From an uncultured Mycoplasmatota bacterium (lineage in GTDB: Bacteria > Bacillota_I > Bacilli_A > RF39 > UBA660), in the NCBI GenBank assembly GCA_946413985.1, contig CAMKMS010000001.1, forward strand, positions 76,317 to 140,316: 64,000 bases of DNA, in the 5' to 3' direction. The notes beneath the pieces are model-generated. The model was not told the DNA's origin. It searched no databases and saw only the letters and a list, made by a program, of their open reading frames with translations. Shown piece after piece: positions 5,009 through 13,335 of this stretch. Every line of letters begins with the position of its first letter. The first letter of the stretch is position 1. The position numbers and the translations under genes were made by a program.

Positions 5009-5431
5009 ATGTTTAAGTATAAAAAAATTAGCTTATATATTTTAACATTTCTTTATATTATTTTTTCATTTATAGAATTCATTATATATTTGAAAGTTGA
5101 GAATACTATTTTTGGTTTATACTATTTAATTTCTACTATGGTTTTAATATTTTTATTAGTGCCATGTGTTTATAATTATAATAGTAAGCATAATAATATA
5201 AGAATTAGTAAATTAATAATAGTGATTTTACTTGGAATTTTTAATAGTTTTATTCTTTCAAGTATTATTTTGAATGGTTATAACTACACTGATGGCTCAG
5301 AAAAATATATTAATAGCATTTTTATTTTTAAAAATATATTGAAACCTATAATATACTTTGGATTATTAATAATTACTATTTTTGAGACAAAATTAGTTAA
5401 TTTAATCAGAAAAAATAATCAAAAAGGTTGA
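5009..5431 (+). CDS. Small polytopic membrane protein, unknown function
   Basis: Four hydrophobic segments. I prefer the ATG at 5009 (SD GAGGTG at 4999-5004) over the track start at 4997. TGgTATAAT lies at 4984-4992. Confidence 0.5.
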   Translation: MFKYKKISLYILTFLYIIFSFIEFIIYLKVENTIFGLYYLISTMVLIFLLVPCVYNYNSKHNNIRISKLIIVILLGIFNSFILSSIILNGYNYTDGSEKYINSIFIFKNILKPIIYFGLLIITIFETKLVNLIRKNNQKG

Positions 5432-5455
5432 CTAATCCTTTTTTTTTGCTATAAT
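5428..5455 (+). promoter_or_regulatory. Sigma-A-type promoter (TTGACT-N16-TGcTATAAT)
   Basis: -35 TTGACT at 5428-5433; extended -10 TGCTATAAT at 5447-5455. This is the first of two tandem promoters upstream of the 5561 gene. Confidence 0.45.
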
Positions 5456-5501: not shown

Positions 5502-5530
5502 TTGACTTTTTTCGCATATTGTGGTATAAT
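5502..5530 (+). promoter_or_regulatory. Sigma-A-type promoter (TTGACT-N17-TGgTATAAT)
   Basis: Near-consensus -35 at 5502-5507 and extended -10 at 5522-5530. It overlaps the track's TTG start at 5519, which argues for the ATG at 5561. Confidence 0.65.
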
Positions 5531-5560: not shown

Positions 5561-7054
5561 ATGAAAAATGAATTAGTAGAAGAAACTAAAGATATATGTA
5601 AAGACATATATGAATCATTAAAAGCTAAACATGCTGAAAAAAAAATAGAGGGAGCAGGAGTTACAATTCTTAATGAATTAGTTAAAGATATGAAAGCAGC
5701 TATAAGACTTCATAATGATGTTGATGAAGAAAATGCTGAAATAATTCGTACTGAAGCAATTAATCTTAGAAAAAACATAAATTATAAATATCATATATTA
5801 GAAGATGTTGCTCCTGAACTATTGCAAGATGAAGAATTAGATGATGACGATGAAGAAATGACAGATTCTAGAAAAGTTGCAAGAAAAGAAAATGCAAAAA
5901 GAAGTGTTGCTGTTGAATTAGCTTTAGTAACTGCATTAGCAGGTATTACTGTTCATTCTGGTTGTTTAAATAAAAAAATCAGAAGTTATCTTGAAGCTAG
6001 AACAGAAACTGTAGAGGAAGTTGAAGAACCTGTTATTACAAAGAAAGTTGCTGAAGTAAAAGAAACACCTGTAGTAACACCTGTTGTACCAGTTGCACCA
6101 ACAATGGAACCAACAGCTGAACCAACAGCAGTACCAACAGCAGTACCAACAGCTGTTCCAACAGTTGCACCAACTGCAGAGCCAGTTCAAGTACCAGTAA
6201 TAACTTTATCAAATACTGCAACACCTGCACCACAACAATTAGTGCTTGGTGAATATGGTACATTCTTTGATGTAGAAGATGATGAACAAGTAAATGCAAG
6301 AGCTCAATACATTTATGATAATTATTTTGCAAATAATAGTTCATTAACACCACAACAAAGACAATTAATTACACCAGAAAATATTGCTAATACAATTAGA
6401 GTTATGAATGGTGTATTACCAATTGATCAAAATGGTAATCAATTTATGAATGGAACAACATTAGATGATTATACAAATATATTAACTGAAATGGTTGTTA
6501 ATATTGGATCAAATGTAAATGATCATTATGAATACTTCCCATCTCATTTATTATTTGTTGATGGAAGTCCTGAATCAGAATTTGTTAAATCTTATGATGT
6601 AATTTATGATAAATTAGTATATGCTTTAAATGAACATGATGATGAACAAGTACAAGATGCAATTGCATGTCTTGGATTAAAATTCAATAAAGAATGGTTC
6701 TTACAAGGTATGTATGGAGATGTAAATCCACATCTAATGGACTCTGATAAGAAATATTTGTTATTTATTACAACAATTGAACCATATAATACTACAGCAA
6801 GAGAATGGCATTTATCAGAAAAGAAACCAGTTTGTATTAAAGGCTGTAAAAATTATGAAACAGGAGAAGAAGAATTAATTTCTGTTAATGATTTACAAAC
6901 AGCTTTAGAAACAGGTGCTTGGAATCATATAGGTGCTAAACTTGGTGGAATGGATGTTGAAACACATTCTTGGCTTGAAGATTATTATGAAGTATTATTT
7001 GAAGCATTATCATGGAAATACGATCATAGACAAACATTAAGTAAAACTTATTAA
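5561..7054 (+). CDS. Bitopic membrane protein with a Pro/Thr/Ala-rich linker and a large extracytoplasmic C-terminal domain, unknown function
   Basis: SD AAGGGGG lies 7 nt before the ATG at 5561. Layout: charged helical N-terminus, one TM (VAVELALVTALAGITV), PT(A/E/V) repeats, then about 290 aa with no motif I recognise. Confidence 0.6.
   Translation: MKNELVEETKDICKDIYESLKAKHAEKKIEGAGVTILNELVKDMKAAIRLHNDVDEENAEIIRTEAINLRKNINYKYHILEDVAPELLQDEELDDDDEEMTDSRKVARKENAKRSVAVELALVTALAGITVHSGCLNKKIRSYLEARTETVEEVEEPVITKKVAEVKETPVVTPVVPVAPTMEPTAEPTAVPTAVPTAVPTVAPTAEPVQVPVITLSNTATPAPQQLVLGEYGTFFDVEDDEQVNARAQYIYDNYFANNSSLTPQQRQLITPENIANTIRVMNGVLPIDQNGNQFMNGTTLDDYTNILTEMVVNIGSNVNDHYEYFPSHLLFVDGSPESEFVKSYDVIYDKLVYALNEHDDEQVQDAIACLGLKFNKEWFLQGMYGDVNPHLMDSDKKYLLFITTIEPYNTTAREWHLSEKKPVCIKGCKNYETGEEELISVNDLQTALETGAWNHIGAKLGGMDVETHSWLEDYYEVLFEALSWKYDHRQTLSKTY
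6094..6183 (+). repeat. In-frame 12-nt periodic repeat encoding (A/E/V)PT(A/V) units
   Basis: Runs of gtaccaacagca / gaaccaacagct / gttccaacagtt. It encodes APTMEPTAEPTAVPTAVPTAVPTVAPTAEP. Confidence 0.8.
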
Positions 7055-7073
7055 TTTTTAGGGGGTTTTGATT

Positions 7074-8642
7074 ATGTATAGTAATGAGAAGAAAAATGGA
7101 TTTAGTGTTTTAGATCTATTAGTAAAAATTATATTTGCTGCTATATTTATATTTATATTAATTTGGTTATTCCAAAAGAAAATTCCTAATGTTAATATGA
7201 CTCCATTCTATAGTAATGTATTTAGAGAAAATATTAAATATATGCAAGAAGCTGGTGAAAGTTATTTCACTAATGATAAATTACCAACAGTAAGTGGTGA
7301 AAGTGTTAAATTAACACTTGAAGAAATGGAAAGATTAAATCTTGTCTTACCATTTGTTGATCAAGATGGAAATGCTTGTAATAAAACAGAATCTTATGTA
7401 AGTATTACTAAACTTGAAGGAGATTTAGGATATGAACTAAAAACAAACTTAGTTTGTGGAAAAGAATCTAACTTCACTGTTAAAACATTAGGATGTCATG
7501 TTTATTGTCCAAATAATGGAGTTAAATGTGATTGTAATTGTGGAACTAAGAAATGTTCTTATGAAAAAGTAACAGAATATCAATTTAAGAAATTAGTATC
7601 AGGAACTAAAGTAAAATATAGTTGTGATAAGAAGTATTCTTTAAAAGGTAAATACTGTTATAAAATGGTATTAGAAGATACTAAGAGTGCTCTTGTAACT
7701 AAAACAAGAGAGAAAACTTTAACTCAAGATGCAAAATTAATTACAGAAGATGCAAAATATAATTTATTAAAAACAGTTGTAACACCTGTAACTGATACAA
7801 AAGATGCTACACCAGTAACATCAACTGATGTTAAAATGGCAACACCTGTTGTAACTACAGATACAAAAGATGCAACACCAGAAAAAGTAAAATATACTTG
7901 TACTAAAGTTAAAACTGAAACAAGATGTACAACAAGAACTGTTAAGAATCCATATTCATGTAATTGTAAAACTACAATTGTACGTGGAAAATCAACAACA
8001 ACTTGTGATACATGTTATGAAACTGTTCAAGTTCAAGATTGTAAAGATGTTGAAGTAGAATATGATGATGAATGTACAAAAACAGTATATAATTGTAAGA
8101 AATATGATGGTTATACATTAAGTGGAAAGAAATGTATTAAAGAAATTACAACATATAATTGTAATAAATATAGTGGATATACATTAGATGGAAATAAATG
8201 TAAGAAAACTACAACAACTTACAATTGTAATAAATATAGTGGATACACACTAGATGGAAAGAAATGTAAAAAAACTACAAATACTTATAGTTGTCCAAAA
8301 GGAACTGATGTTCAAGAAGGAAGCGGAGCAAACTTAAAATGTTATCAAGTTATTGCTGGAAAAACATACTATAAATGTACTGATAGTACTTATACATTAA
8401 GCGGAACTAAATGTTATAAAGTAGTTAGTGAAACATATACAGATAAAGATTGTTCAAAATATAAAGGATATGTTTTAGAAGGAGATAAATGTAAATTATA
8501 TAAAACAGATAAAGTAAAAGCAAAAGTTACTAAGACTTCTACTTCATCATATAGTTATAAATGGAGTACTTCTAAAGAATTATCTGGATGGACTGCTACT
8601 GGAAAAACAAGAACTGTAAAAGGAAAAAAGGTTTGTAAATAA
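7074..8642 (+). CDS. Cys-rich secreted/anchored repeat protein with a prepilin-like N-terminus
   Basis: SD AGGGGG precedes the ATG at 7074. The N-terminus KKNG-FSVLDLLVKIIFAAIF resembles a class III (prepilin) signal, with Asp at +5. The protein has 31 Cys, TPVxTDTKDATP repeats, and seven CxKYxGYTLxGxKC-like units. Confidence 0.6.
   Translation: MYSNEKKNGFSVLDLLVKIIFAAIFIFILIWLFQKKIPNVNMTPFYSNVFRENIKYMQEAGESYFTNDKLPTVSGESVKLTLEEMERLNLVLPFVDQDGNACNKTESYVSITKLEGDLGYELKTNLVCGKESNFTVKTLGCHVYCPNNGVKCDCNCGTKKCSYEKVTEYQFKKLVSGTKVKYSCDKKYSLKGKYCYKMVLEDTKSALVTKTREKTLTQDAKLITEDAKYNLLKTVVTPVTDTKDATPVTSTDVKMATPVVTTDTKDATPEKVKYTCTKVKTETRCTTRTVKNPYSCNCKTTIVRGKSTTTCDTCYETVQVQDCKDVEVEYDDECTKTVYNCKKYDGYTLSGKKCIKEITTYNCNKYSGYTLDGNKCKKTTTTYNCNKYSGYTLDGKKCKKTTNTYSCPKGTDVQEGSGANLKCYQVIAGKTYYKCTDSTYTLSGTKCYKVVSETYTDKDCSKYKGYVLEGDKCKLYKTDKVKAKVTKTSTSSYSYKWSTSKELSGWTATGKTRTVKGKKVCK
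8098..8295 (+). repeat. Three tandem 66-bp in-frame repeats (22-aa units YNC(K/N)KY(D/S)GYTL(S/D)G(K/N)KC.K..T.)
   Basis: Units at 8098-8163, 8164-8229 and 8230-8295. Units 2 and 3 are nearly identical at the DNA level. Confidence 0.85.
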
Positions 8643-8652
8643 ACCTTTTTTT
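8627..8652 (+). terminator. Intrinsic terminator
   Basis: AAAGGTTT-gtaaat-AAACCTTT followed by a T-run. It overlaps the stop codon of the Cys-rich gene. Confidence 0.6.
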
Positions 8653-8700
8653 ATTGATAAAAAGTACCAAATGTAATAAAATTATTAAAGAGGTACTTGA

Positions 8701-9150
8701 ATGAAAAAAAATAATATTATTTTTGTTATTATTGGATTATTTGTAATAATTGTATTTGGAATTGTAGTTATTTCATTAAATGGAAAAGTAATAAATTATA
8801 AAGAAAGAAGTGTTGATGATTGGTATAATGACATTACGAATAATAAAGAAGTTCTAACAGTATTTGGAGCATCTTATTGTAGTCATTGCCAAGAGTATTA
8901 TCCAGTTATATCAAAATTAGCTAGTAAATATGATATAAATTTATACTTTTTTGAAATAGATACATTACAAAAACAAGATAGTGATGCTTATTCAAAACTA
9001 ATGAATTCATTTGATATAAGTGAGTTTACTGGTAGTGTTCCATTTTCATTTACAATTGAAAATAATAAGATCAAGAATTATAGAAGTGGATATATGAGTA
9101 GAGATGATACTATTTCATTTTTAAAAGAATGGAGCTTTATAAAAAACTAG
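8701..9150 (+). CDS. Membrane-anchored thioredoxin-fold thiol:disulfide oxidoreductase
   Basis: N-terminal TM anchor, then a thioredoxin-like CxxC (FGASYCSHCQEYYP). SD AGAGG. Confidence 0.7.
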   Translation: MKKNNIIFVIIGLFVIIVFGIVVISLNGKVINYKERSVDDWYNDITNNKEVLTVFGASYCSHCQEYYPVISKLASKYDINLYFFEIDTLQKQDSDAYSKLMNSFDISEFTGSVPFSFTIENNKIKNYRSGYMSRDDTISFLKEWSFIKN

Positions 9151-9201
9151 AAAACTAGTTTTTTATTTTTTATTATTGTATAATTTATATAGGTGAAGTA
9201 T

Positions 9202-10299
9202 ATGAAGAAATGGTTATTAATATTATTATCTATTTTTTTCATTATAGTTATTTTTAAATACAGATTTTCAAATTATTCTATTAGTTATAAAATAGATAAT
9301 TTCAATGTTAAAACAGTTTATAGAAATAAGAGGCTTTATTTTGAAATAACTGATAATGATAAAGTATATAATTTTGATATATATGAAAAAAGATCTTTTA
9401 AAAAAACAATGATTAGTAAAATAGATATTTTAGAAGATGAAAAAACTAAATGTATTTATCCAACAATTAATAATTATAAAACATATCCATTATGTTATTA
9501 TGATGGAGTTTATATGGATTATAATTTGATAGATTCTTCTATTTTAGATATATATAAAGAAGAGACTGTTGAATTACAAAAGCCATCTAAAGATTTTACA
9601 TATTATAATAATTTAGAAAAGAATGAATATGTTGCTTTATGGAATTACAAAGGTTATAAAGTAATGAATGGTAATTATTATAATAATGTAGAATTGTTTA
9701 AGAACGATAAATATGATAATAGTCTAGCTTATATAATTGATAATACAATATATATGGCAAATAATGATGAAGAGCATGAATATACAAAATTAACTAGTTT
9801 AAATCTGGAAACATTAAAAAGTGAAGTAATAGAATTAAAGCATAATATAGATTTTGATTCTTATATAGTTGGTAATGTTAAAAATAAATTATATATATTT
9901 GATAATAAATTTTCTATTCTTTATGAAATAGATGTAAAAAAGAAAAAAACTACTATTATTGGAAATAATGAAAAAGGATATGTAAAATATGAAGATGGAA
10001 AATTTGTAACTTGTAGTAAATCTTTATATAAAGTAGATAAATTTAAAATAAATAATAGTAATTCAAATTATACGTATTCAAGTGATGGTATGTATAAAAG
10101 TTTTAATGAAAATAATATTTTAAATATAAAAATAAATAATAATGAAAATAAAATAATTAAAGAAAAAGATAATGCTATTTACTATCAATATAAAGATAAT
10201 TTTTATAAATATGAACCATTAAATGGTAGTAGAATAATATTTTATAATTATGAATTAACATTTAATAGTAATAATACTATATTTGTATATAATAAATAA
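9202..10299 (+). CDS. N-terminally anchored extracytoplasmic protein, unknown function
   Basis: ATG at 9202 preceded by AGGTGA. Signal-anchor KKWLLILLSIFFIIVIF. Rich in Asn/Tyr/Lys; no recognisable motif. Confidence 0.5.
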   Translation: MKKWLLILLSIFFIIVIFKYRFSNYSISYKIDNFNVKTVYRNKRLYFEITDNDKVYNFDIYEKRSFKKTMISKIDILEDEKTKCIYPTINNYKTYPLCYYDGVYMDYNLIDSSILDIYKEETVELQKPSKDFTYYNNLEKNEYVALWNYKGYKVMNGNYYNNVELFKNDKYDNSLAYIIDNTIYMANNDEEHEYTKLTSLNLETLKSEVIELKHNIDFDSYIVGNVKNKLYIFDNKFSILYEIDVKKKKTTIIGNNEKGYVKYEDGKFVTCSKSLYKVDKFKINNSNSNYTYSSDGMYKSFNENNILNIKINNNENKIIKEKDNAIYYQYKDNFYKYEPLNGSRIIFYNYELTFNSNNTIFVYNK

Positions 10300-10392
10300 T
10301 AATAAAATAAATGTGTAATTCATAGATTGATTAAGAATGCAAGTAATTGAATATCAATAATAATTATGTTAGAATTTAATTGGAGGCAATAT

Positions 10393-10674
10393 ATGAAATT
10401 TATTGAAGCAAAAAAAAGTGAAGAGAAAACACCAGAAGGAGTAACAATACATTTTGATGGATTTGATCAACTAATAGAAGCAAGAAATAATGGCCAATTT
10501 GCAGTATGGGAATTTGGAGATTTTGTTTCAACAACAGATGACATTCCAGAAAATTATAGTCAGTTAGAATATTCAGAATTAGTTAGACAAATGAAAGTAA
10601 AAGCATTTGAAAGACAAGAAAAATTGGAAAAAGCTGTTTCAGATTCAAAAAGTAATACTGGTATAAAAATGTAG
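10393..10674 (+). CDS. Small acidic cytoplasmic protein, unknown function
   Basis: ATG at 10393 with SD GGAGG 6 nt upstream. The track start at 10366 has no SD. Confidence 0.45.
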   Translation: MKFIEAKKSEEKTPEGVTIHFDGFDQLIEARNNGQFAVWEFGDFVSTTDDIPENYSQLEYSELVRQMKVKAFERQEKLEKAVSDSKSNTGIKM

Positions 10675-10727
10675 ATATAAAAATAACACTTAAATAATAA
10701 TTACATATAATACTTTAGGTGATAAAT

Positions 10728-11045
10728 ATGGAAAATATTGTATATAGTCCTTTCTATGATTCATATGAAATAAAAAAAGGAGATACATTATATCAAATAT
10801 CTAAAGATTATAATGTTAATACTAAATTGCTTGCAGAATTAAACGGATTAAATATTGATGATTACATATATCCTGGACAAACTATATTAGTTCCTAAAAA
10901 AAATGTAAGTTATTATATTACTAAAGAAGGAGATACTCTTAAAGGAATTAGTGAAATATTTAATGTAAAAGAAAATGACATAATTAATAGTAATGATACT
11001 ATTTATTTGACACCAGGACAAATGATATATTATAAAAGAGACTAA
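10728..11045 (+). CDS. Protein with two LysM domains
   Basis: Two LysM repeats: IKKGDTLYQISKDYNV...YPGQTILVP and TKEGDTLKGISEIFNV...TPGQMIY. ATG at 10728 after AGGTGA. Confidence 0.75.
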   Translation: MENIVYSPFYDSYEIKKGDTLYQISKDYNVNTKLLAELNGLNIDDYIYPGQTILVPKKNVSYYITKEGDTLKGISEIFNVKENDIINSNDTIYLTPGQMIYYKRD

Positions 11046-11063
11046 AAATGTAGTCTTTTTTTT
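11039..11063 (+). terminator. Intrinsic terminator
   Basis: AGACTA-aaaatg-TAGTCT followed by T7. Confidence 0.55.
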
Positions 11064-11070
11064 ATTATCA

Positions 11071-11079
11071 TGATATAAT
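11071..11079 (+). promoter_or_regulatory. Extended -10 promoter element TGATATAAT
   Basis: Exact TGaTATAAT directly after the terminator T-run and 24 nt before the ATG at 11103. Confidence 0.45.
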
Positions 11080-11102
11080 TCTTATAGTAGGAGTTGGTTA
11101 GA

Positions 11103-12698
11103 ATGGTAATTAAAAAACCATATGCATTTTTAATTAAACATTTTAGGCTTATTCATGCCATTCTTTTTGTTTTATTAATATATATTTTATCAAAATCATT
11201 TAGTATATATTCATTTTTTAGTAATTATGCAAAAACACTTTTATATGTAAATACCAATAATATGGCTAGTACATATGTATCCTCTACTCTTTTTATTGCA
11301 ACAATAGTAGCTGTTATAGTCACATTTATAATCTATTATATAATGACTATGAAGCAAAAGAGTAATAAGTTATATCTATTTGTATTTATGTATTATTTAG
11401 TTCTTATATTCTTCTTTGTATATATACGTAGTGTTTTTTTAGGACTTCAAGAAACTTCAATTGACGTTGAAAGTATAAGAGCGATGAGGGATATAAGTAT
11501 AATAGTAATTATTCCTCAAGTTATAATGCTATTTATTATTTTAGGAAGAACTCTTGGATTTAATTTAAAACAGTTTGATTTTAAAAAAGATTTAGAAGAA
11601 TTACAAATAGACACATCTGATAATGAAGAAGTAGAAGTTACAATTGGTAATGATACATATAAAATAGCCAGATTTTTTAGAAAAGTACTAAGATTAACTA
11701 AATATTTTGTATTAGAAAATAAAGTATTTGTTATAGGAACTTCTTCCATAATTGTTCTTGGTTTATCATTATTCTTATTTAATAAATTAAATGTTTATAA
11801 AGAAAGCTATAAAGAAAATCAAGTTGTTAATGCCTCATCTTTGTTTTTTAAAATAAACTCAAGTTATATAACACAAGCAGATAAAAATAATGTAATTATC
11901 TCAAATGGTAAACATTATATTTTAGTTGATGTATTTGTTAGTAATAAAACTCGTATAAATCAAAATATTAATAGAAATACATTTAGATTAAAAATAGGTG
12001 ATGAATTATTACTTCCATCATTTAATTATTCAAATAGATTTAATGATATTGGTGATGTTTTTAATCCTTTTGTATTAAAAGGTGGAGAAGATGCTAGTTT
12101 ATTAGTAGTATTTGAGATTAATAATACTGATTTATCAAAGCAATATTTATTTAAAATTAATAATTTAATTAATTCATCTACTTCGACTACTTTTAAAGAT
12201 GTTATAATAAATCCAATTAGTTTAAATGAGAATAAAGATGAAGGATCTTTTAGTATACCAAGTGAGATTAAATTATCAAATTCTATTTTAAAAGAATCAA
12301 GTGTTAATTTGCTGGAAGCAGAATTTGGTGATAGTTTTAAAGAAAATTATACTTATACATTAAATGGAAAGAAGAGAACAGCAACTTATTCTATCATACC
12401 AGAGTCAACTAATAAACGTGAAGTAACAATATTAAAATTACAAGCTAATATAAAAATGGATGAAGATGTATATTTAAATAAACTAATAAAGTATCCTGGT
12501 GATTTATTTGAACAGTATGGAATTATTAGATATAGATATCAAGGAAATTACGTTACTGTAAAACTAAATAAAATTAATGTTAATTATAATAAAGAAAATT
12601 ATTGTTATATGGAGGTAACAAAAGAAGTATTAAAAGCAAATAAAATTGAATTAATATTACTAATTAGGGGCGTAAAGTATACATTTATCTTGAAATAG
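11103..12698 (+). CDS. Polytopic membrane protein with a large extracytoplasmic beta-rich C-terminal region, unknown function
   Basis: ATG at 11103, 9 nt after AGGAG. About 5 TM segments, followed by about 300 aa of hydrophilic sequence. Confidence 0.5.
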   Translation: MVIKKPYAFLIKHFRLIHAILFVLLIYILSKSFSIYSFFSNYAKTLLYVNTNNMASTYVSSTLFIATIVAVIVTFIIYYIMTMKQKSNKLYLFVFMYYLVLIFFFVYIRSVFLGLQETSIDVESIRAMRDISIIVIIPQVIMLFIILGRTLGFNLKQFDFKKDLEELQIDTSDNEEVEVTIGNDTYKIARFFRKVLRLTKYFVLENKVFVIGTSSIIVLGLSLFLFNKLNVYKESYKENQVVNASSLFFKINSSYITQADKNNVIISNGKHYILVDVFVSNKTRINQNINRNTFRLKIGDELLLPSFNYSNRFNDIGDVFNPFVLKGGEDASLLVVFEINNTDLSKQYLFKINNLINSSTSTTFKDVIINPISLNENKDEGSFSIPSEIKLSNSILKESSVNLLEAEFGDSFKENYTYTLNGKKRTATYSIIPESTNKREVTILKLQANIKMDEDVYLNKLIKYPGDLFEQYGIIRYRYQGNYVTVKLNKINVNYNKENYCYMEVTKEVLKANKIELILLIRGVKYTFILK

Positions 12699-12729
12699 TG
12701 CATATAATTTGTTATAATTATTTGTACGT

Positions 12730-12803
12730 GGAACCATAGCCAAGTGGTAAGGCCCCGGTCTGCAACACCGTCATCGCCAGTTCGAATCTGGCTGGTTCCT
12801 CCA
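12730..12803 (+). tRNA. tRNA-Cys (anticodon GCA)
   Basis: Cloverleaf: acceptor GGAACCA/TGGTTCC, anticodon loop cuGCAac, T-arm with GTTCGAATC, discriminator U, encoded CCA. Confidence 0.9.
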
Positions 12804-12885
12804 AGTAAAATGTAAAACAACCTTTATTGGTTGCTTTTTTTAATGTATATATATGATATAATAATAGTAGAAAGTAGGTATTGAT

Positions 12886-13335
12886 ATGAATAGAAAAGGA
12901 TTTACATTAGTAGAACTATTAGCAGTTATTGCAATTGTAGCAGTATTATCTATAACAGTTGCTCCAAATATTATTAGTACATTTAATAAGTCAAAAAAAC
13001 AAAATTTTATTACAGAAACAAGAGAAGTATGTAGAGAGGCATCTAATACATATTTAAGAGAAGCAATCATTACTGCTCAAGCAAAAAGTTATTATAAGAT
13101 TAGTAATGATACATCACATGCTTTAGATTTAAGTGGAAGAAGCGAATTTAAATATTATGTTAAAGTAAATACTGATGGAGAAGTAATAGCAATACTAACT
13201 TATGATGGTACTAATACTATTTTGATAGTTAATTCTTCAGGTATAGAACCAAATGATATATCTGAAAGTGATATTACACTTAGTGTAGATACTTCAAATA
13301 TGACTACTACAAAAGCTGAAAACTTATTAAGATAA
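12886..13335 (+). CDS. Type IV pilin / competence pseudopilin-like protein (N-terminal methylation motif)
   Basis: Canonical class III signal MNRKG-FTLVELLAVIAIVAVL, with Glu at +5. Confidence 0.8.
   Translation: MNRKGFTLVELLAVIAIVAVLSITVAPNIISTFNKSKKQNFITETREVCREASNTYLREAIITAQAKSYYKISNDTSHALDLSGRSEFKYYVKVNTDGEVIAILTYDGTNTILIVNSSGIEPNDISESDITLSVDTSNMTTTKAENLLR

What the first reader, a model, noticed from the sequence alone, without database searches (positions are those of the whole stretch)
7074..9150. Protein with 31 cysteines, tandem repeats and a prepilin-like N-terminus, followed by a membrane-anchored thioredoxin
Seen:
- The N-terminus KKNG-FSVLDLLVKIIFAAIF matches the class III signal logic (Gly, then Phe, then a hydrophobic helix), with Asp rather than Glu at +5.
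- The mature part has 31 Cys, two TPVxTDTKDATP units, and seven copies of a roughly 22-aa unit built on CxKYxGYTLxGxKC. Three of these are near-identical 66-bp DNA repeats.
- The next gene encodes an anchored thioredoxin-fold protein with CSHC.

Established: low-GC Gram-positives secrete few disulfide-rich proteins and generally need dedicated extracytoplasmic thiol-disulfide oxidoreductases for them. Type IV pilins and pseudopilins use G/F(M)xxxE signals cleaved by a prepilin peptidase.

Inference: this may be a disulfide-stapled, possibly pilus-presented adhesin-like protein with its own folding catalyst. I do not recognise the repeat family.
Basis: partly seen in the sequence, partly recalled or inferred. 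Interest (0 to 1): 0.62.

Follow-up and report, generated by a model that had tools for sequence, protein, structure and literature searches.

The report
Pilin-derived cysteine-rich envelope stalk with thioredoxin
Uncultured small-genome gut bacteria all carry a strongly promoted gene for a membrane-rooted, disulfide-stapled rod protein whose base is a degenerate type IV pilin module, next to a membrane thioredoxin that probably forms its disulfides; the family is unnamed and unstudied, but both halves are variants of known kinds.

Summary
ORF 7074-8642 encodes 522 aa with 31 Cys, the stated repeats and a G|FSVLD N-terminus. ORF 8701-9150 is a membrane-anchored thioredoxin with a CSHC site.

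New here: the first ~135 residues are a true but degenerate type IV pilin module. They align at 99.6% probability with giant modular prepilins of sister genomes that carry canonical KGFTLVE signals. Gly9 and Asp14 fall on pilin Gly-1 and Glu5.

The module has lost defining pilin features:
- It gets no N_methyl hit.
- Gly-1 is kept in only 86% of orthologues.
- The long helix is broken by a proline linker.
- An Asp5/Lys9 pair sits in the membrane helix.
- The MYSN leader is invariant.

The rest is predicted as an all-beta ribbon. Cysteine parity is odd in 110 of 116 orthologues. Covariation (111+14 against 1) points to a C161-C521 disulfide and one unpaired Cys.

The gene lies second in a seven-gene operon behind a perfect sigma-A-type promoter that is conserved in about 40 loci.

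Best reading (0.5): a pilin-derived, permanently anchored envelope stalk, oxidised by the CxHC thioredoxin.

Main rival (0.3): it is still a PilD-processed modular tip pilin.

No function is assignable beyond this.

The parts
5502..5530 (+). Sigma-A-type promoter of the operon (TTGACT-17-TGnTATAAT). A second promoter-like site lies at 5428-5455.
   Evidence: It matches 11/12 positions and has an extended -10. A 12/12 or 11/12 site lies about 60 nt upstream of the homologous gene in about 40 of 40 related loci, including distant ones.
5561..7054 (+). 'up511': a bitopic membrane protein with a coiled cytoplasmic N-part, a TM segment, a PT-rich linker and an extracytoplasmic C-domain of about 270 aa with a conserved CxxxC. 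It is the constant upstream partner of the Cys-rich gene.
   Evidence: It is adjacent to the Cys-rich gene in close and distant loci. The conserved Cys pair is present in 85% and a juxtamembrane Cys in 68%. It has no family or PDB match.
7074..7175 (+). Degenerate class III-like signal: leader MYSNEKKNG, then FSVLD...K... in a hydrophobic helix (aa 1-34).
   Evidence: M1, Y2, S3, F10, W31-F33 are invariant. D14 is kept in 70/71 and K18 in 70/71, but G9 in only 61/71. G9/F10/D14 align onto pilin G-1/F+1/E5. There is no N_methyl or TIGR02532 hit.
7200..7490 (+). Pilin-type head: helix aa 43/47-64 plus a small beta-sheet, with the C102-C128 pair.
   Evidence: AF2 gives pLDDT of about 90 here. An HMM of this part alone hits 11/11 canonical prepilin paralogues. 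The paralogue profile in turn hits 20 solved pilins.
7494..7556 (+). Base Cys cluster LGCHVYCPNNGVKCDCNCGTKKC (C141, C145, C152, C154, C156, C161). It has low model confidence.
   Evidence: pLDDT is below 50 at aa 142-159. The cluster count covaries with the C-terminal Cys: even with it (111 cases), three without it (14 cases), one truncated exception.
7554..8636 (+). All-beta, K/T/Y-rich ribbon (aa 161-521). It contains a long hairpin (aa 268-340) with four nested Cys pairs, seven two-Cys hairpin units and a conserved C-terminal YxYKWS...GW.TGKTRTV..C motif.
   Evidence: AF2 mean pLDDT is 83.9, strands only. Foldseek gives no significant match. Conserved columns come; Cys parity.
7790..7881 (+). 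TP(V)TDTKDATP repeat (33-bp period).
8088..8294 (+). 66-bp tandem array encoding three CxKYxGYTLxGxKC units.
   Evidence: 3.1 copies. Units 2 and 3 are 90% identical; unit 1 is 76% identical to unit 2.
8701..9150 (+). Membrane-anchored thioredoxin-fold oxidoreductase. The CSHC site is at 8878-8889 and the cis-Pro is P114.
   Evidence: PF00085 scores 35.5 bits. C60, C63 and P114 are invariant in 32/32. The site is CxHC in 24/31 orthologues.
9193..12698 (+). The rest of the operon: a TM-anchored 368-aa protein; a lineage-specific 102-aa ORF; a 2xLysM protein without a signal peptide (10719-11045); and a polytopic 534-aa protein with a weak DUF4352 match.
   Evidence: Synteny holds in more than 30 loci. 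There is no terminator-like site before 12818.
12730..12833 (+). tRNA-Cys(GCA), followed by the first terminator-like hairpin after the operon (12818-12833).
   Evidence: tRNA-Cys follows the operon in 19/19 loci examined and is the only tRNA-Cys in the assembly.

Best explanation
The 522-aa protein is a descendant of modular type IV pilins. It has been converted into a permanent, N-in/C-out membrane-rooted envelope stalk.

Proposed anatomy and mechanism:
- Its former class III signal now serves as a signal-anchor. The Asp at pilin position 5 is neutralised within the same helix by a Lys one turn further on (D14/K18). The short cytoplasmic MYSN tail is retained.
- Outside the membrane sit a small pilin-type head, a three-Cys (+2n) cluster, and a long beta-ribbon.
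- The ribbon is stapled by about 15 disulfides. These include a ladder in one long hairpin and a bond that ties the C-terminal Cys back to the start of the ribbon (C161-C521).
- The protein is made from a very strong vegetative promoter together with its constant partner, the upstream bitopic protein.
- The adjacent anchored thioredoxin has a DsbA/PDI-like CxHC site. It oxidises or shuffles the cysteines as the chain emerges from Sec, and probably does the same for the organism's other exported Cys-rich proteins.

Shown: homology to pilins, loss of signal features, Cys parity and covariation, operon and promoter conservation, and the thioredoxin catalytic motifs.

Inferred: lack of cleavage, disulfide chemistry, the direction of the thioredoxin reaction, and a structural/envelope role.
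For: Pilin ancestry:
- hhalign of A3 against A4 gives 99.6%, E 1.5e-24, over 125 columns.
- The head-only HMM hits 11/11 canonical paralogues.
- Those paralogues pass PF07963 in 6/9 cases, and their profile hits 20 solved pilins.

Loss of pilin features:
- No class III HMM hit, and no PDB pilin hit for A3.
- The residue at -1 is R or N in 10/71 orthologues, and H, S, T or L, or no Gly, in distant members. The definition requires Gly or Ala (PMC10191384).
- The helix is broken by a low-confidence KK(I/V)PN..P linker.
- D14 and K18 are each kept in 70/71, and the pair is D..R in G329.
- The MYSN leader is invariant.

Extracytoplasmic location and disulfides:
- Paralogues carry Big_2 or TSP1 modules on the same base.
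- The Cys count is odd in 110/116 orthologues.
- Cluster count against C-terminal Cys covaries 111+14 against 1.

Vegetative, abundant, core gene:
- A perfect promoter is conserved in about 40 loci.
- The N-module is found in 50 of 50 sampled genomes of the family but in 1 of about 349 other Bacilli.
- Orthologues persist in three genomes that lack SpoIIGA.

Thioredoxin:
- C60, C63 and P114 are invariant, and the site is CxHC in 24/31.
- Cytoplasmic zinc-ribbon or Lys-rich tails before the TM segment in many orthologues fix the topology.
- It is the only such gene in a genome with at least 8 other exported Cys-rich proteins.
Against: - In this genome the site KKNG|FSVLD has Gly-1 and Phe+1, and a PilD-type peptidase is present. 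PilD is universal in the family (61/61), so cleavage cannot be excluded here.
- Nine of the ten close orthologues without Gly-1 keep a Gly at -3.
- Tip pilins normally lack Glu5, and modular pilins are large (PMC10191384, PMC8179133).
- No coordinates were available, so the disulfide map rests on sequence covariation and strand register only.
- No DsbB, VKOR or CcdA partner was found for the thioredoxin, in a 77%-complete assembly.
- The biological role of the stalk is not identified.
Confidence: 0.5

Rival explanations
1. It is still a working modular type IV pilin. PilD cleaves after Gly9, and the protein is incorporated, probably at the tip, into the type IV filaments of this organism. Those filaments then display the disulfide-stapled ribbon as an adhesin.
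For: - The module is homologous to real prepilins, with G9/F10/D14 on G-1/F+1/E5.
- Gly-1 is kept in 86% of orthologues, and most others have a Gly at -3.
- PilD is universal, and PilC lies next to PilD on C8.
- The 1.19-Mb assembly holds 13 canonical pilin genes, scattered rather than clustered.
- Tip subunits lack Glu5, and modular pilins are thought to sit at the tip (PMC10191384, PMC8179133).
Against: - It fails the class III HMMs.
- The -1 residue is R, N, K, H or S in several lineages that keep the rest of the protein intact.
- The leader is invariant, alpha1 is broken by prolines, and a Lys is buried at +9.
- The gene sits in a conserved operon behind a consensus promoter with non-pilus genes, which is unexpected for a low-copy tip subunit.
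- No PilB-type ATPase was found in the assembly, only a CpaF/Tad-like one.
Confidence: 0.3
2. It is a sporulation-specific envelope component that acts in the forespore intermembrane space. The thioredoxin would then be a StoA-like partner, and the signal-less LysM protein a SafA-like one.
For: - In distant relatives the gene pair lies directly upstream of spoIIGA-sigE-sigG.
- The genome carries spoIIGA and sigE and a SpoIVA-like gene.
- SpoIIGA is present in 53/61 genomes of the family.
- The operon's 2xLysM protein has no signal peptide and gives a weak SafA-type hit.
Against: - The promoter is a perfect vegetative sigma-A-type consensus in about 40 loci.
- Orthologues persist in G006, G329 and G343, which lack SpoIIGA at 94-98% completeness.
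- No CcdA was found, which a StoA-type reductive pathway needs.
- The CxHC site is of the oxidising type.
Confidence: 0.07
3. The cysteines are metal (zinc) ligands of a protein that faces the cytoplasm.
For: CxC, CxxC and C-H-x2-C spacings occur in the base cluster and at C296-C314. That cluster is modelled with low confidence.
Against: - Pilin heads are extracytoplasmic, and paralogues carry Big_2 or TSP1 domains on the same base.
- Most Cys come as C-x10-15-C hairpin pairs.
- Parity is odd and changes by twos.
- Composition is T/K/Y-rich, with TP linkers.
- The neighbouring thioredoxin is on the outer face.
Confidence: 0.03

Closest known systems
Modular type IV pilins (PilB and PilC of Streptococcus sanguinis; CofB; GspK) (PMC8179133)
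   Same: An N-terminal pilin module (a hydrophobic alpha1N, an amphipathic helix, and a small beta-sheet with a Cys pair) carries a large grafted C-terminal module. Sister genomes hold canonical members of the same head family, 523-1176 aa long with 12-44 Cys.
   Different: - There is no recognisable class III signal by HMM.
- Asp replaces Glu5, with a Lys at +9.
- Gly-1 is not invariant.
- alpha1 is interrupted by a proline linker.
- The leader is conserved.
- The gene lies in a non-pilus operon.
- The grafted module is an unassigned disulfide-stapled beta-ribbon.
MdbA/VKOR of Actinomyces and Corynebacterium, which fold exported pilins; more generally DsbA, SdbA, BdbD (PMC5478893, PMC9974433)
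   Same: A membrane-anchored thioredoxin-fold enzyme with a CxxC site (here mostly CPHC or CSHC). It acts on Sec-exported, disulfide-containing surface proteins of a monoderm.
   Different: - It is only 149 aa, a plain thioredoxin fold with no DsbA-type helical insertion and no PF01323 or PF13462 hit.
- No VKOR, DsbB or CcdA was found.
- It is encoded next to a substrate candidate, in an anaerobe with a genome of about 1.2-1.5 Mb.
Substrate-linked accessory oxidoreductases: PedC/BrcD, BdbA/B of the sublancin operon, TrbB/TraF of F-like plasmids
   Same: A thioredoxin-like gene is placed beside the gene of a Cys-containing exported product. There are weak HMM similarities: TIGR01295 at E 4.6e-5, TIGR02738 at 9e-5, PF13728 at 8e-4.
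   Different: All these scores are far below the family cut-offs. The candidate substrate is a 522-aa core envelope protein, not a bacteriocin or a conjugative pilin.
Rod-like, single-layer beta-sheet surface proteins (SasG/Aap G5-E repeats, OspA) and two-Cys hairpins of EGF/Sushi modules
   Same: - The composition is rich in K, T, V and Y.
- It is predicted as strands only, with an elongated shape (pTM 0.32 at pLDDT 84).
- The YxCxxGYxLxGxxC consensus is shared.
- Two of 120 homologues carry precomputed cEGF or Sushi hits.
   Different: There is no HMM or Foldseek match for this protein. The resemblance is recalled from memory, not tested.

Membership tests
Type IV pilin / class III signal peptide (PF07963, TIGR02532, IPR012902) | A match to the N-terminal cleavage/methylation motif model | tested here: not met
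   No hit for the window protein at E<=0.01 (Pfam) or E<=0.1 (NCBIfam), and none for any of 31 N-modules at E<=1. The neighbouring true pilin at 12886-13335 scores 30.5 bits.
Type IV pilin / class III signal peptide (PF07963, TIGR02532, IPR012902) | A leader that invariably ends in Gly or Ala (PMC10191384) | tested here: not met
   This protein does have Gly9. Across 71 orthologues the residue is G in 61, R in 9 and N in 1. In distant members it is H, S, T or L, or there is no Gly.
Type IV pilin / class III signal peptide (PF07963, TIGR02532, IPR012902) | A continuous alpha1 helix of about 50 residues packed on a beta-sheet | tested here: not met
   AF2 predicts helix 12-34, then coil 35-42/46 with pLDDT below 50 (KKIPNVNMTP), then helix 43/47-64 and a sheet of 3-4 strands.
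Type IV pilin / class III signal peptide (PF07963, TIGR02532, IPR012902) | Homology of the module to recognised pilins | tested here: met
   hhalign against canonical prepilin paralogues gives 99.6%, E 1.5e-24. The head-only HMM hits them at E 2e-18 to 4e-9. The paralogue profile hits 20 PDB pilins. Direct Foldseek of the module is not significant: pilins appear at E 0.4-0.6 with probability at most 0.12.
Type IV pilin / class III signal peptide (PF07963, TIGR02532, IPR012902) | Cleavage by the prepilin peptidase and polymerisation into a filament | not testable with these tools
   PilD and PilC are present, and PilD is found in 61/61 family genomes, so comparative genomics cannot discriminate.
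Modular type IV pilin (PilB-like architecture) | A pilin module plus a grafted non-pilin module | tested here: met
   The pilin-type module is aa 1-139 and the unrelated beta-ribbon is aa 161-521. The ribbon shows no homology to the paralogues' C-terminal modules.
Thioredoxin-fold thiol-disulfide oxidoreductase | A thioredoxin domain with a CxxC site and a cis-Pro loop | tested here: met
   PF00085 scores 35.5 bits against a cut-off of 23.5. C60, C63 and P114 are invariant in 32/32 orthologues.
DsbA family (PF01323 / PF13462) | A DsbA-type domain with a helical insertion | tested here: not met
   No DSBA or Thioredoxin_4 hit. The protein is 149 aa including the anchor.
Oxidative pathway with a recycling partner (DsbB or VKOR), or reductive pathway (CcdA/DsbD, as for ResA and StoA) | A partner gene in the genome | tested here: inconclusive
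   PF02600, PF07884 and PF02683 are all absent from the assembly, but the assembly is only 77% complete.
EGF / Sushi-type Cys modules | A match to the domain models | tested here: not met
   No Pfam hit for this protein. Only 2 of 120 homologues have precomputed cEGF or Sushi hits.

The most novel reading that the evidence does not exclude
The pilin-derived stalk and its constant upstream partner form a previously undescribed, abundant envelope organelle that is universal in this family of uncultured gut Bacilli. In this reading:
- A pilin has been turned into a fixed 'pseudo-pilin' root by an intrahelical Asp5-Lys9 pair that replaces the Glu5/N-terminal-amine contact.
- The single unpaired Cys of the GCHxYC cluster makes an intermolecular disulfide, for example to the juxtamembrane Cys of the partner.
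- The same N-module is reused to root other surface proteins (Big_2 and other ectodomains).
- The genome's only tRNA-Cys gene is kept at the operon's end to match demand.
Probability: 0.15. Interest if true: 0.75.

Novelty: new variant of a known kind. Interest (0 to 1): 0.55.

Why it matters
These small-genome, uncultured gut Bacilli appear to be RF39-like. That placement rests on the names of the related MAGs and on my recollection of GTDB. They are common in human and animal guts, yet nothing is known about their surfaces.

- **Family hallmark.** The gene is present in every sampled genome of the family and almost nowhere else in the class. It sits behind a consensus promoter, so its product is probably one of their main envelope proteins.
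- **Pilin evolution.** Showing that its root is a decayed type IV pilin module links it to the many canonical and giant modular pilins of these genomes. It offers a natural example of how a pilin may be converted into a static anchor, or how far a class III signal can drift and still work.
- **Oxidative folding.** These strict anaerobes, with genomes of about 1 Mb, export many disulfide-rich proteins using a minimal thioredoxin and no known recycling partner. That makes the question of how oxidative folding is powered there directly testable.

Tried and rejected
- **Family searches on the Cys-rich protein.** Pfam, NCBIfam and PDB sequence searches found nothing.
- **Fold searches.** Foldseek of the full model against PDB and BFVD gave only insignificant matches to long-hairpin pore formers and one phage protein, with TM-scores at most 0.13. 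Foldseek of the N-module gave nothing significant. On this basis I at first read it as an 'ordinary signal anchor'. I withdrew that after the paralogue comparison.
- **Sporulation link.** I followed it through synteny, SpoIIGA distribution and promoter type, and rated it unlikely.
- **Comparative test for PilD dependence.** It was uninformative, because PilD is present in 61/61 genomes.
- **Upstream partner.** It has no family, PDB or domain match.
- **Homology between the beta-ribbon and the paralogues' C-terminal modules.** None was found.
- **C-terminal Cys as the unpaired one.** Rejected: proteins without it are still odd in 69 of 79 cases.
- **Disulfide pairs from the model.** Model coordinates are not exposed, so pairs could not be read from the model.
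Full report
**Setting.** The window is C1:76317-140316 of a 1.19-Mb, 51-contig, 77%-complete assembly with about 23% G+C. Related loci come from MAGs labelled uncultured Tenericutes, Bacilli or Mollicutes, and from Clostridium sp. CAG:524 and CAG:1000. By my recollection of GTDB these names belong to order RF39. That order is predicted to be mostly walled and able to sporulate (PMC10868615).

**Observation.**
- ORF 7074-8642 has an AGGGGG Shine-Dalgarno sequence and starts MYSN, like all its homologues. It encodes 522 aa with 31 Cys, all beyond residue 100.
- It has two TP..TDTKDATP units, seven two-Cys hairpin units, and a 66-bp x3.1 array at 8088-8294.
- Within that array, units 2 and 3 are 90% identical, and unit 1 is 76% identical to unit 2.
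- ORF 8701-9150 is an anchored thioredoxin with CSHC.
Only 'three near-identical' is slightly overstated.

**The family.**
- There are at least 698 full-length relatives at 90% clustering and 1336 representatives at 50%. None is named and none has a Pfam domain.
- A model of the first 145 residues finds a match in all 50 sampled genomes of the same GTDB family, but in only 1 of about 349 other Bacilli.

**Gene order and promoter.**
- Gene order is conserved over more than 30 loci: P-type ATPase, RNase II-like gene (minus strand), small membrane protein, bitopic 'up511', Cys-rich protein, thioredoxin, 368-aa anchored protein, 2xLysM protein, polytopic 534-aa protein.
- A TTGACA-17-TGnTATAAT promoter matching 12/12 or 11/12 positions lies about 60 nt upstream of up511 in about 40 of 40 loci, including the most distant ones. 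In the window it is at 5502-5530.
- No terminator-like hairpin occurs before 12818.
- I therefore read 5561-12698 as one strongly expressed vegetative operon.

**Is the N-terminus a prepilin signal?**
- At first the answer looked negative.
  - There was no N_methyl or TIGR02532 hit.
  - All 13 true pilins of the genome read KGFTL(V/I/M)ELL.
  - Foldseek of a confident model of the module gave no significant match.
- The genome search with the module also hit long ORFs in sister genomes. I fetched them.
  - They begin with canonical KGF(T/S)(L/M)(V/I)E signals.
  - They pass PF07963 in 6 of 9 cases.
  - They are 523-1176 aa long with 12-44 Cys and carry TSP1 or Ig-like modules. In short, they are giant modular type IV pilins.
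- The link to the Cys-rich family is firm.
  - An HMM of residues 43-145 alone, with the membrane helix removed, hits all 11 of them at E 2e-18 to 4e-9.
  - Profile-profile comparison gives 99.6% probability and E 1.5e-24 over 125 columns. It places Gly9-Phe10 on pilin Gly-1/Phe+1 and Asp14 on Glu5.
  - The paralogue profile hits 20 solved pilins, whereas the Cys-rich family profile hits none.
- The module is therefore a pilin module by descent.
- Earlier follow-up notes on homologous loci (e1-1068456, e1-1165296) called it 'not a pilin'. I agree with their functional reading, but the ancestry statement needs amending.

**Is it still a working pilin?** The points against are these.
- The leader must end in Gly or Ala (PMC10191384). 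Yet the -1 residue is Arg in 9 and Asn in 1 of 71 orthologues that are otherwise intact.
- It is His, Ser, Thr or Leu, or there is no Gly, in more distant members.
- The trademark continuous alpha1 helix is interrupted by a low-confidence KK(I/V)PN..P linker.
- Asp14 and Lys18 are each kept in 70 of 71 (D..R in one distant orthologue). They lie one helical turn apart, so they could neutralise each other inside the membrane. A real pilin uses Glu5 against a neighbour's N-terminal amine (PMC10191384).
- The leader MYSN is invariant, which is unexpected for a peptide that is cut off.
- The gene lies in a consensus-promoter operon without pilus genes.

The points for are these.
- This particular protein has Gly-1 and Phe+1.
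- Most Arg variants keep a Gly at -3.
- A PilD with both domains and a PilC lie on contig C8, and PilD is present in 61 of 61 family genomes.
- Tip pilins lack Glu5, and modular pilins are thought to sit at the tip (PMC8179133).

I put the anchored reading at 0.5 and the processed-pilin reading at 0.3.

**The ectodomain.**
- AlphaFold2 with 71 sequences gives a mean pLDDT of 83.9 and a pTM of 0.32.
- The model has the membrane helix, a helix plus a small sheet (aa 43-139), an unconfident Cys cluster (aa 142-159), and then only strands to the end. Among them is a very long hairpin, 268-303/306-340.
- No fold match is significant.
- The cysteines carry information of their own.
  - 110 of 116 orthologues and 113 of 135 distant representatives have an odd number of Cys.
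  - The unpaired one is not the C-terminal Cys, because 69 of 79 proteins that lack it are still odd.
  - The number of Cys in the base cluster tracks the C-terminal Cys instead. It is 4, 6 or 8 when that Cys is present (111 proteins) and 3 when it is absent (14). The single exception is truncated.
- I infer a C161-C521 bond that ties the chain end back to the first strand of the ribbon.
- I also infer a conserved three-Cys motif, GC(H)xYC...C, with one unpaired thiol.
- In the long hairpin the eight Cys are nested with near-constant register (276+334, 285+323, 296+314, 298+311 = 608-610), as expected for a disulfide ladder.
- These inferences rest on sequence and predicted strands. The family members are related, so the counts are not independent events.

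**Location.** An extracytoplasmic location follows from three things: the pilin homology; paralogues that carry Big_2 or TSP1 modules on the same base; and the composition.

**The thioredoxin.**
- C60, C63 and the cis-Pro P114 are invariant in 32 of 32 orthologues.
- The site is CPHC in 20, CSHC in 3 and CGHC in 1 of 31. From established knowledge this is the DsbA/PDI-type motif of oxidising enzymes.
- Many orthologues have a cytoplasmic zinc ribbon or a Lys-rich tail before the membrane segment, which fixes the domain on the outer face.
- The gene follows the Cys-rich gene in 31 loci, but is missing there in two rabbit-gut lineages and in distant relatives.
- Relatives are detectable in 50 of 61 family genomes, often in several copies.
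- In this genome it is the only one of its kind. At least eight other exported proteins have 22-45 Cys.
- I therefore regard it as the cell's general extracytoplasmic oxidase placed beside a major client, rather than a private catalyst.
- No DsbB, VKOR or CcdA was found, but the assembly is incomplete.

**Sporulation alternative.**
- In distant relatives the order is serS, a 274-aa protein, the partner, the Cys-rich gene, a 266-aa protein, spoIIGA, sigE, sigG.
- This genome has spoIIGA and sigE on C28 and a SpoIVA-like gene on C8.
- The operon's LysM protein lacks a signal peptide.
- Against this: the promoter is of vegetative type everywhere. Three nearly complete genomes without SpoIIGA keep the orthologue.

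**Verdict.** This is a real, family-defining gene pair. The Cys-rich protein is a new, degenerate variant of modular type IV pilins. It is most likely fixed in the membrane as an envelope stalk. The thioredoxin is a minimal DsbA-like oxidase candidate. What the stalk does, and what the partner is, remain open.

Noticed in passing
window 12730-12803; L004-L041: tRNA-Cys(GCA) lies directly after the last gene of the Cys-rich operon in 19 of 19 related loci examined; in L041 it is inverted. It is the only tRNA-Cys gene found in this assembly. It has its own promoter-like site (12690-12718), and the first terminator follows it. This could be a supply/demand linkage or mere synteny.
   Followed up: partly
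window 10719-11045: The operon's 108-aa protein with two LysM domains has no signal peptide or membrane segment, and neither do its orthologues (L008, L024, L041). A peptidoglycan-binding protein without an export signal is unusual outside spore-coat proteins and phage lysins.
   Followed up: partly
L052:282-3230 (-), L053:205-3483, L054:2627-6157: Sister genomes encode giant canonical prepilins (982-1176 aa, up to 44 Cys) that share this head module. They carry thrombospondin type 1 (TSP_1, TSP1_ADAMTS) or Ig-like modules.
   Followed up: partly
genome contigs C2, C4, C6, C8, C10, C26, C32; window 12886-13335: There are 13 canonical KGFTL(V/I/M)E pilin genes scattered through a 1.19-Mb assembly. 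PilC (T2SSF, 179 bits) sits next to a two-domain PilD on C8.
   Followed up: partly
L039, L044, L046; genome C28:7424-9775, C19:14205-14984, C8:21436-22929: Distant relatives show an ancestral block: serS, a 274-aa protein, the partner, the Cys-rich gene, a 266-aa protein, spoIIGA, sigE, sigG. In this genome the block is split over three contigs. spoIIGA is present in 53 of 61 genomes of this 0.7-1.5 Mb family.
   Followed up: partly
window 10366-10674: The 102-aa ORF between the 368-aa gene and the LysM gene has no counterpart in any of the 45 related loci. L041 instead has a bacterial PH-domain protein (bPH_3) between the thioredoxin and the 368-aa gene.
   Followed up: no
L015-L022, L030-L033 (thioredoxin orthologues): Many orthologues of the anchored thioredoxin carry an N-terminal cytoplasmic zinc ribbon (CxxC...CxxC) or a long Lys/Thr-rich tail before the membrane segment. 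The window's copy has neither.
   Followed up: no
genome C26:1-3630 (-), C5:34022-37657 (-), C4:23449-26217 (+), C8:1-2145 (-): Several other signal-peptide proteins of 715-1211 aa have 31-45 Cys. The organism therefore exports an unusually large set of Cys-rich proteins for a low-G+C monoderm.
   Followed up: no
L038 8001-11100: The complete-chromosome relative (CP091739) has this operon broken into many short frames. This is probably due to long-read indel errors rather than decay.
   Followed up: no
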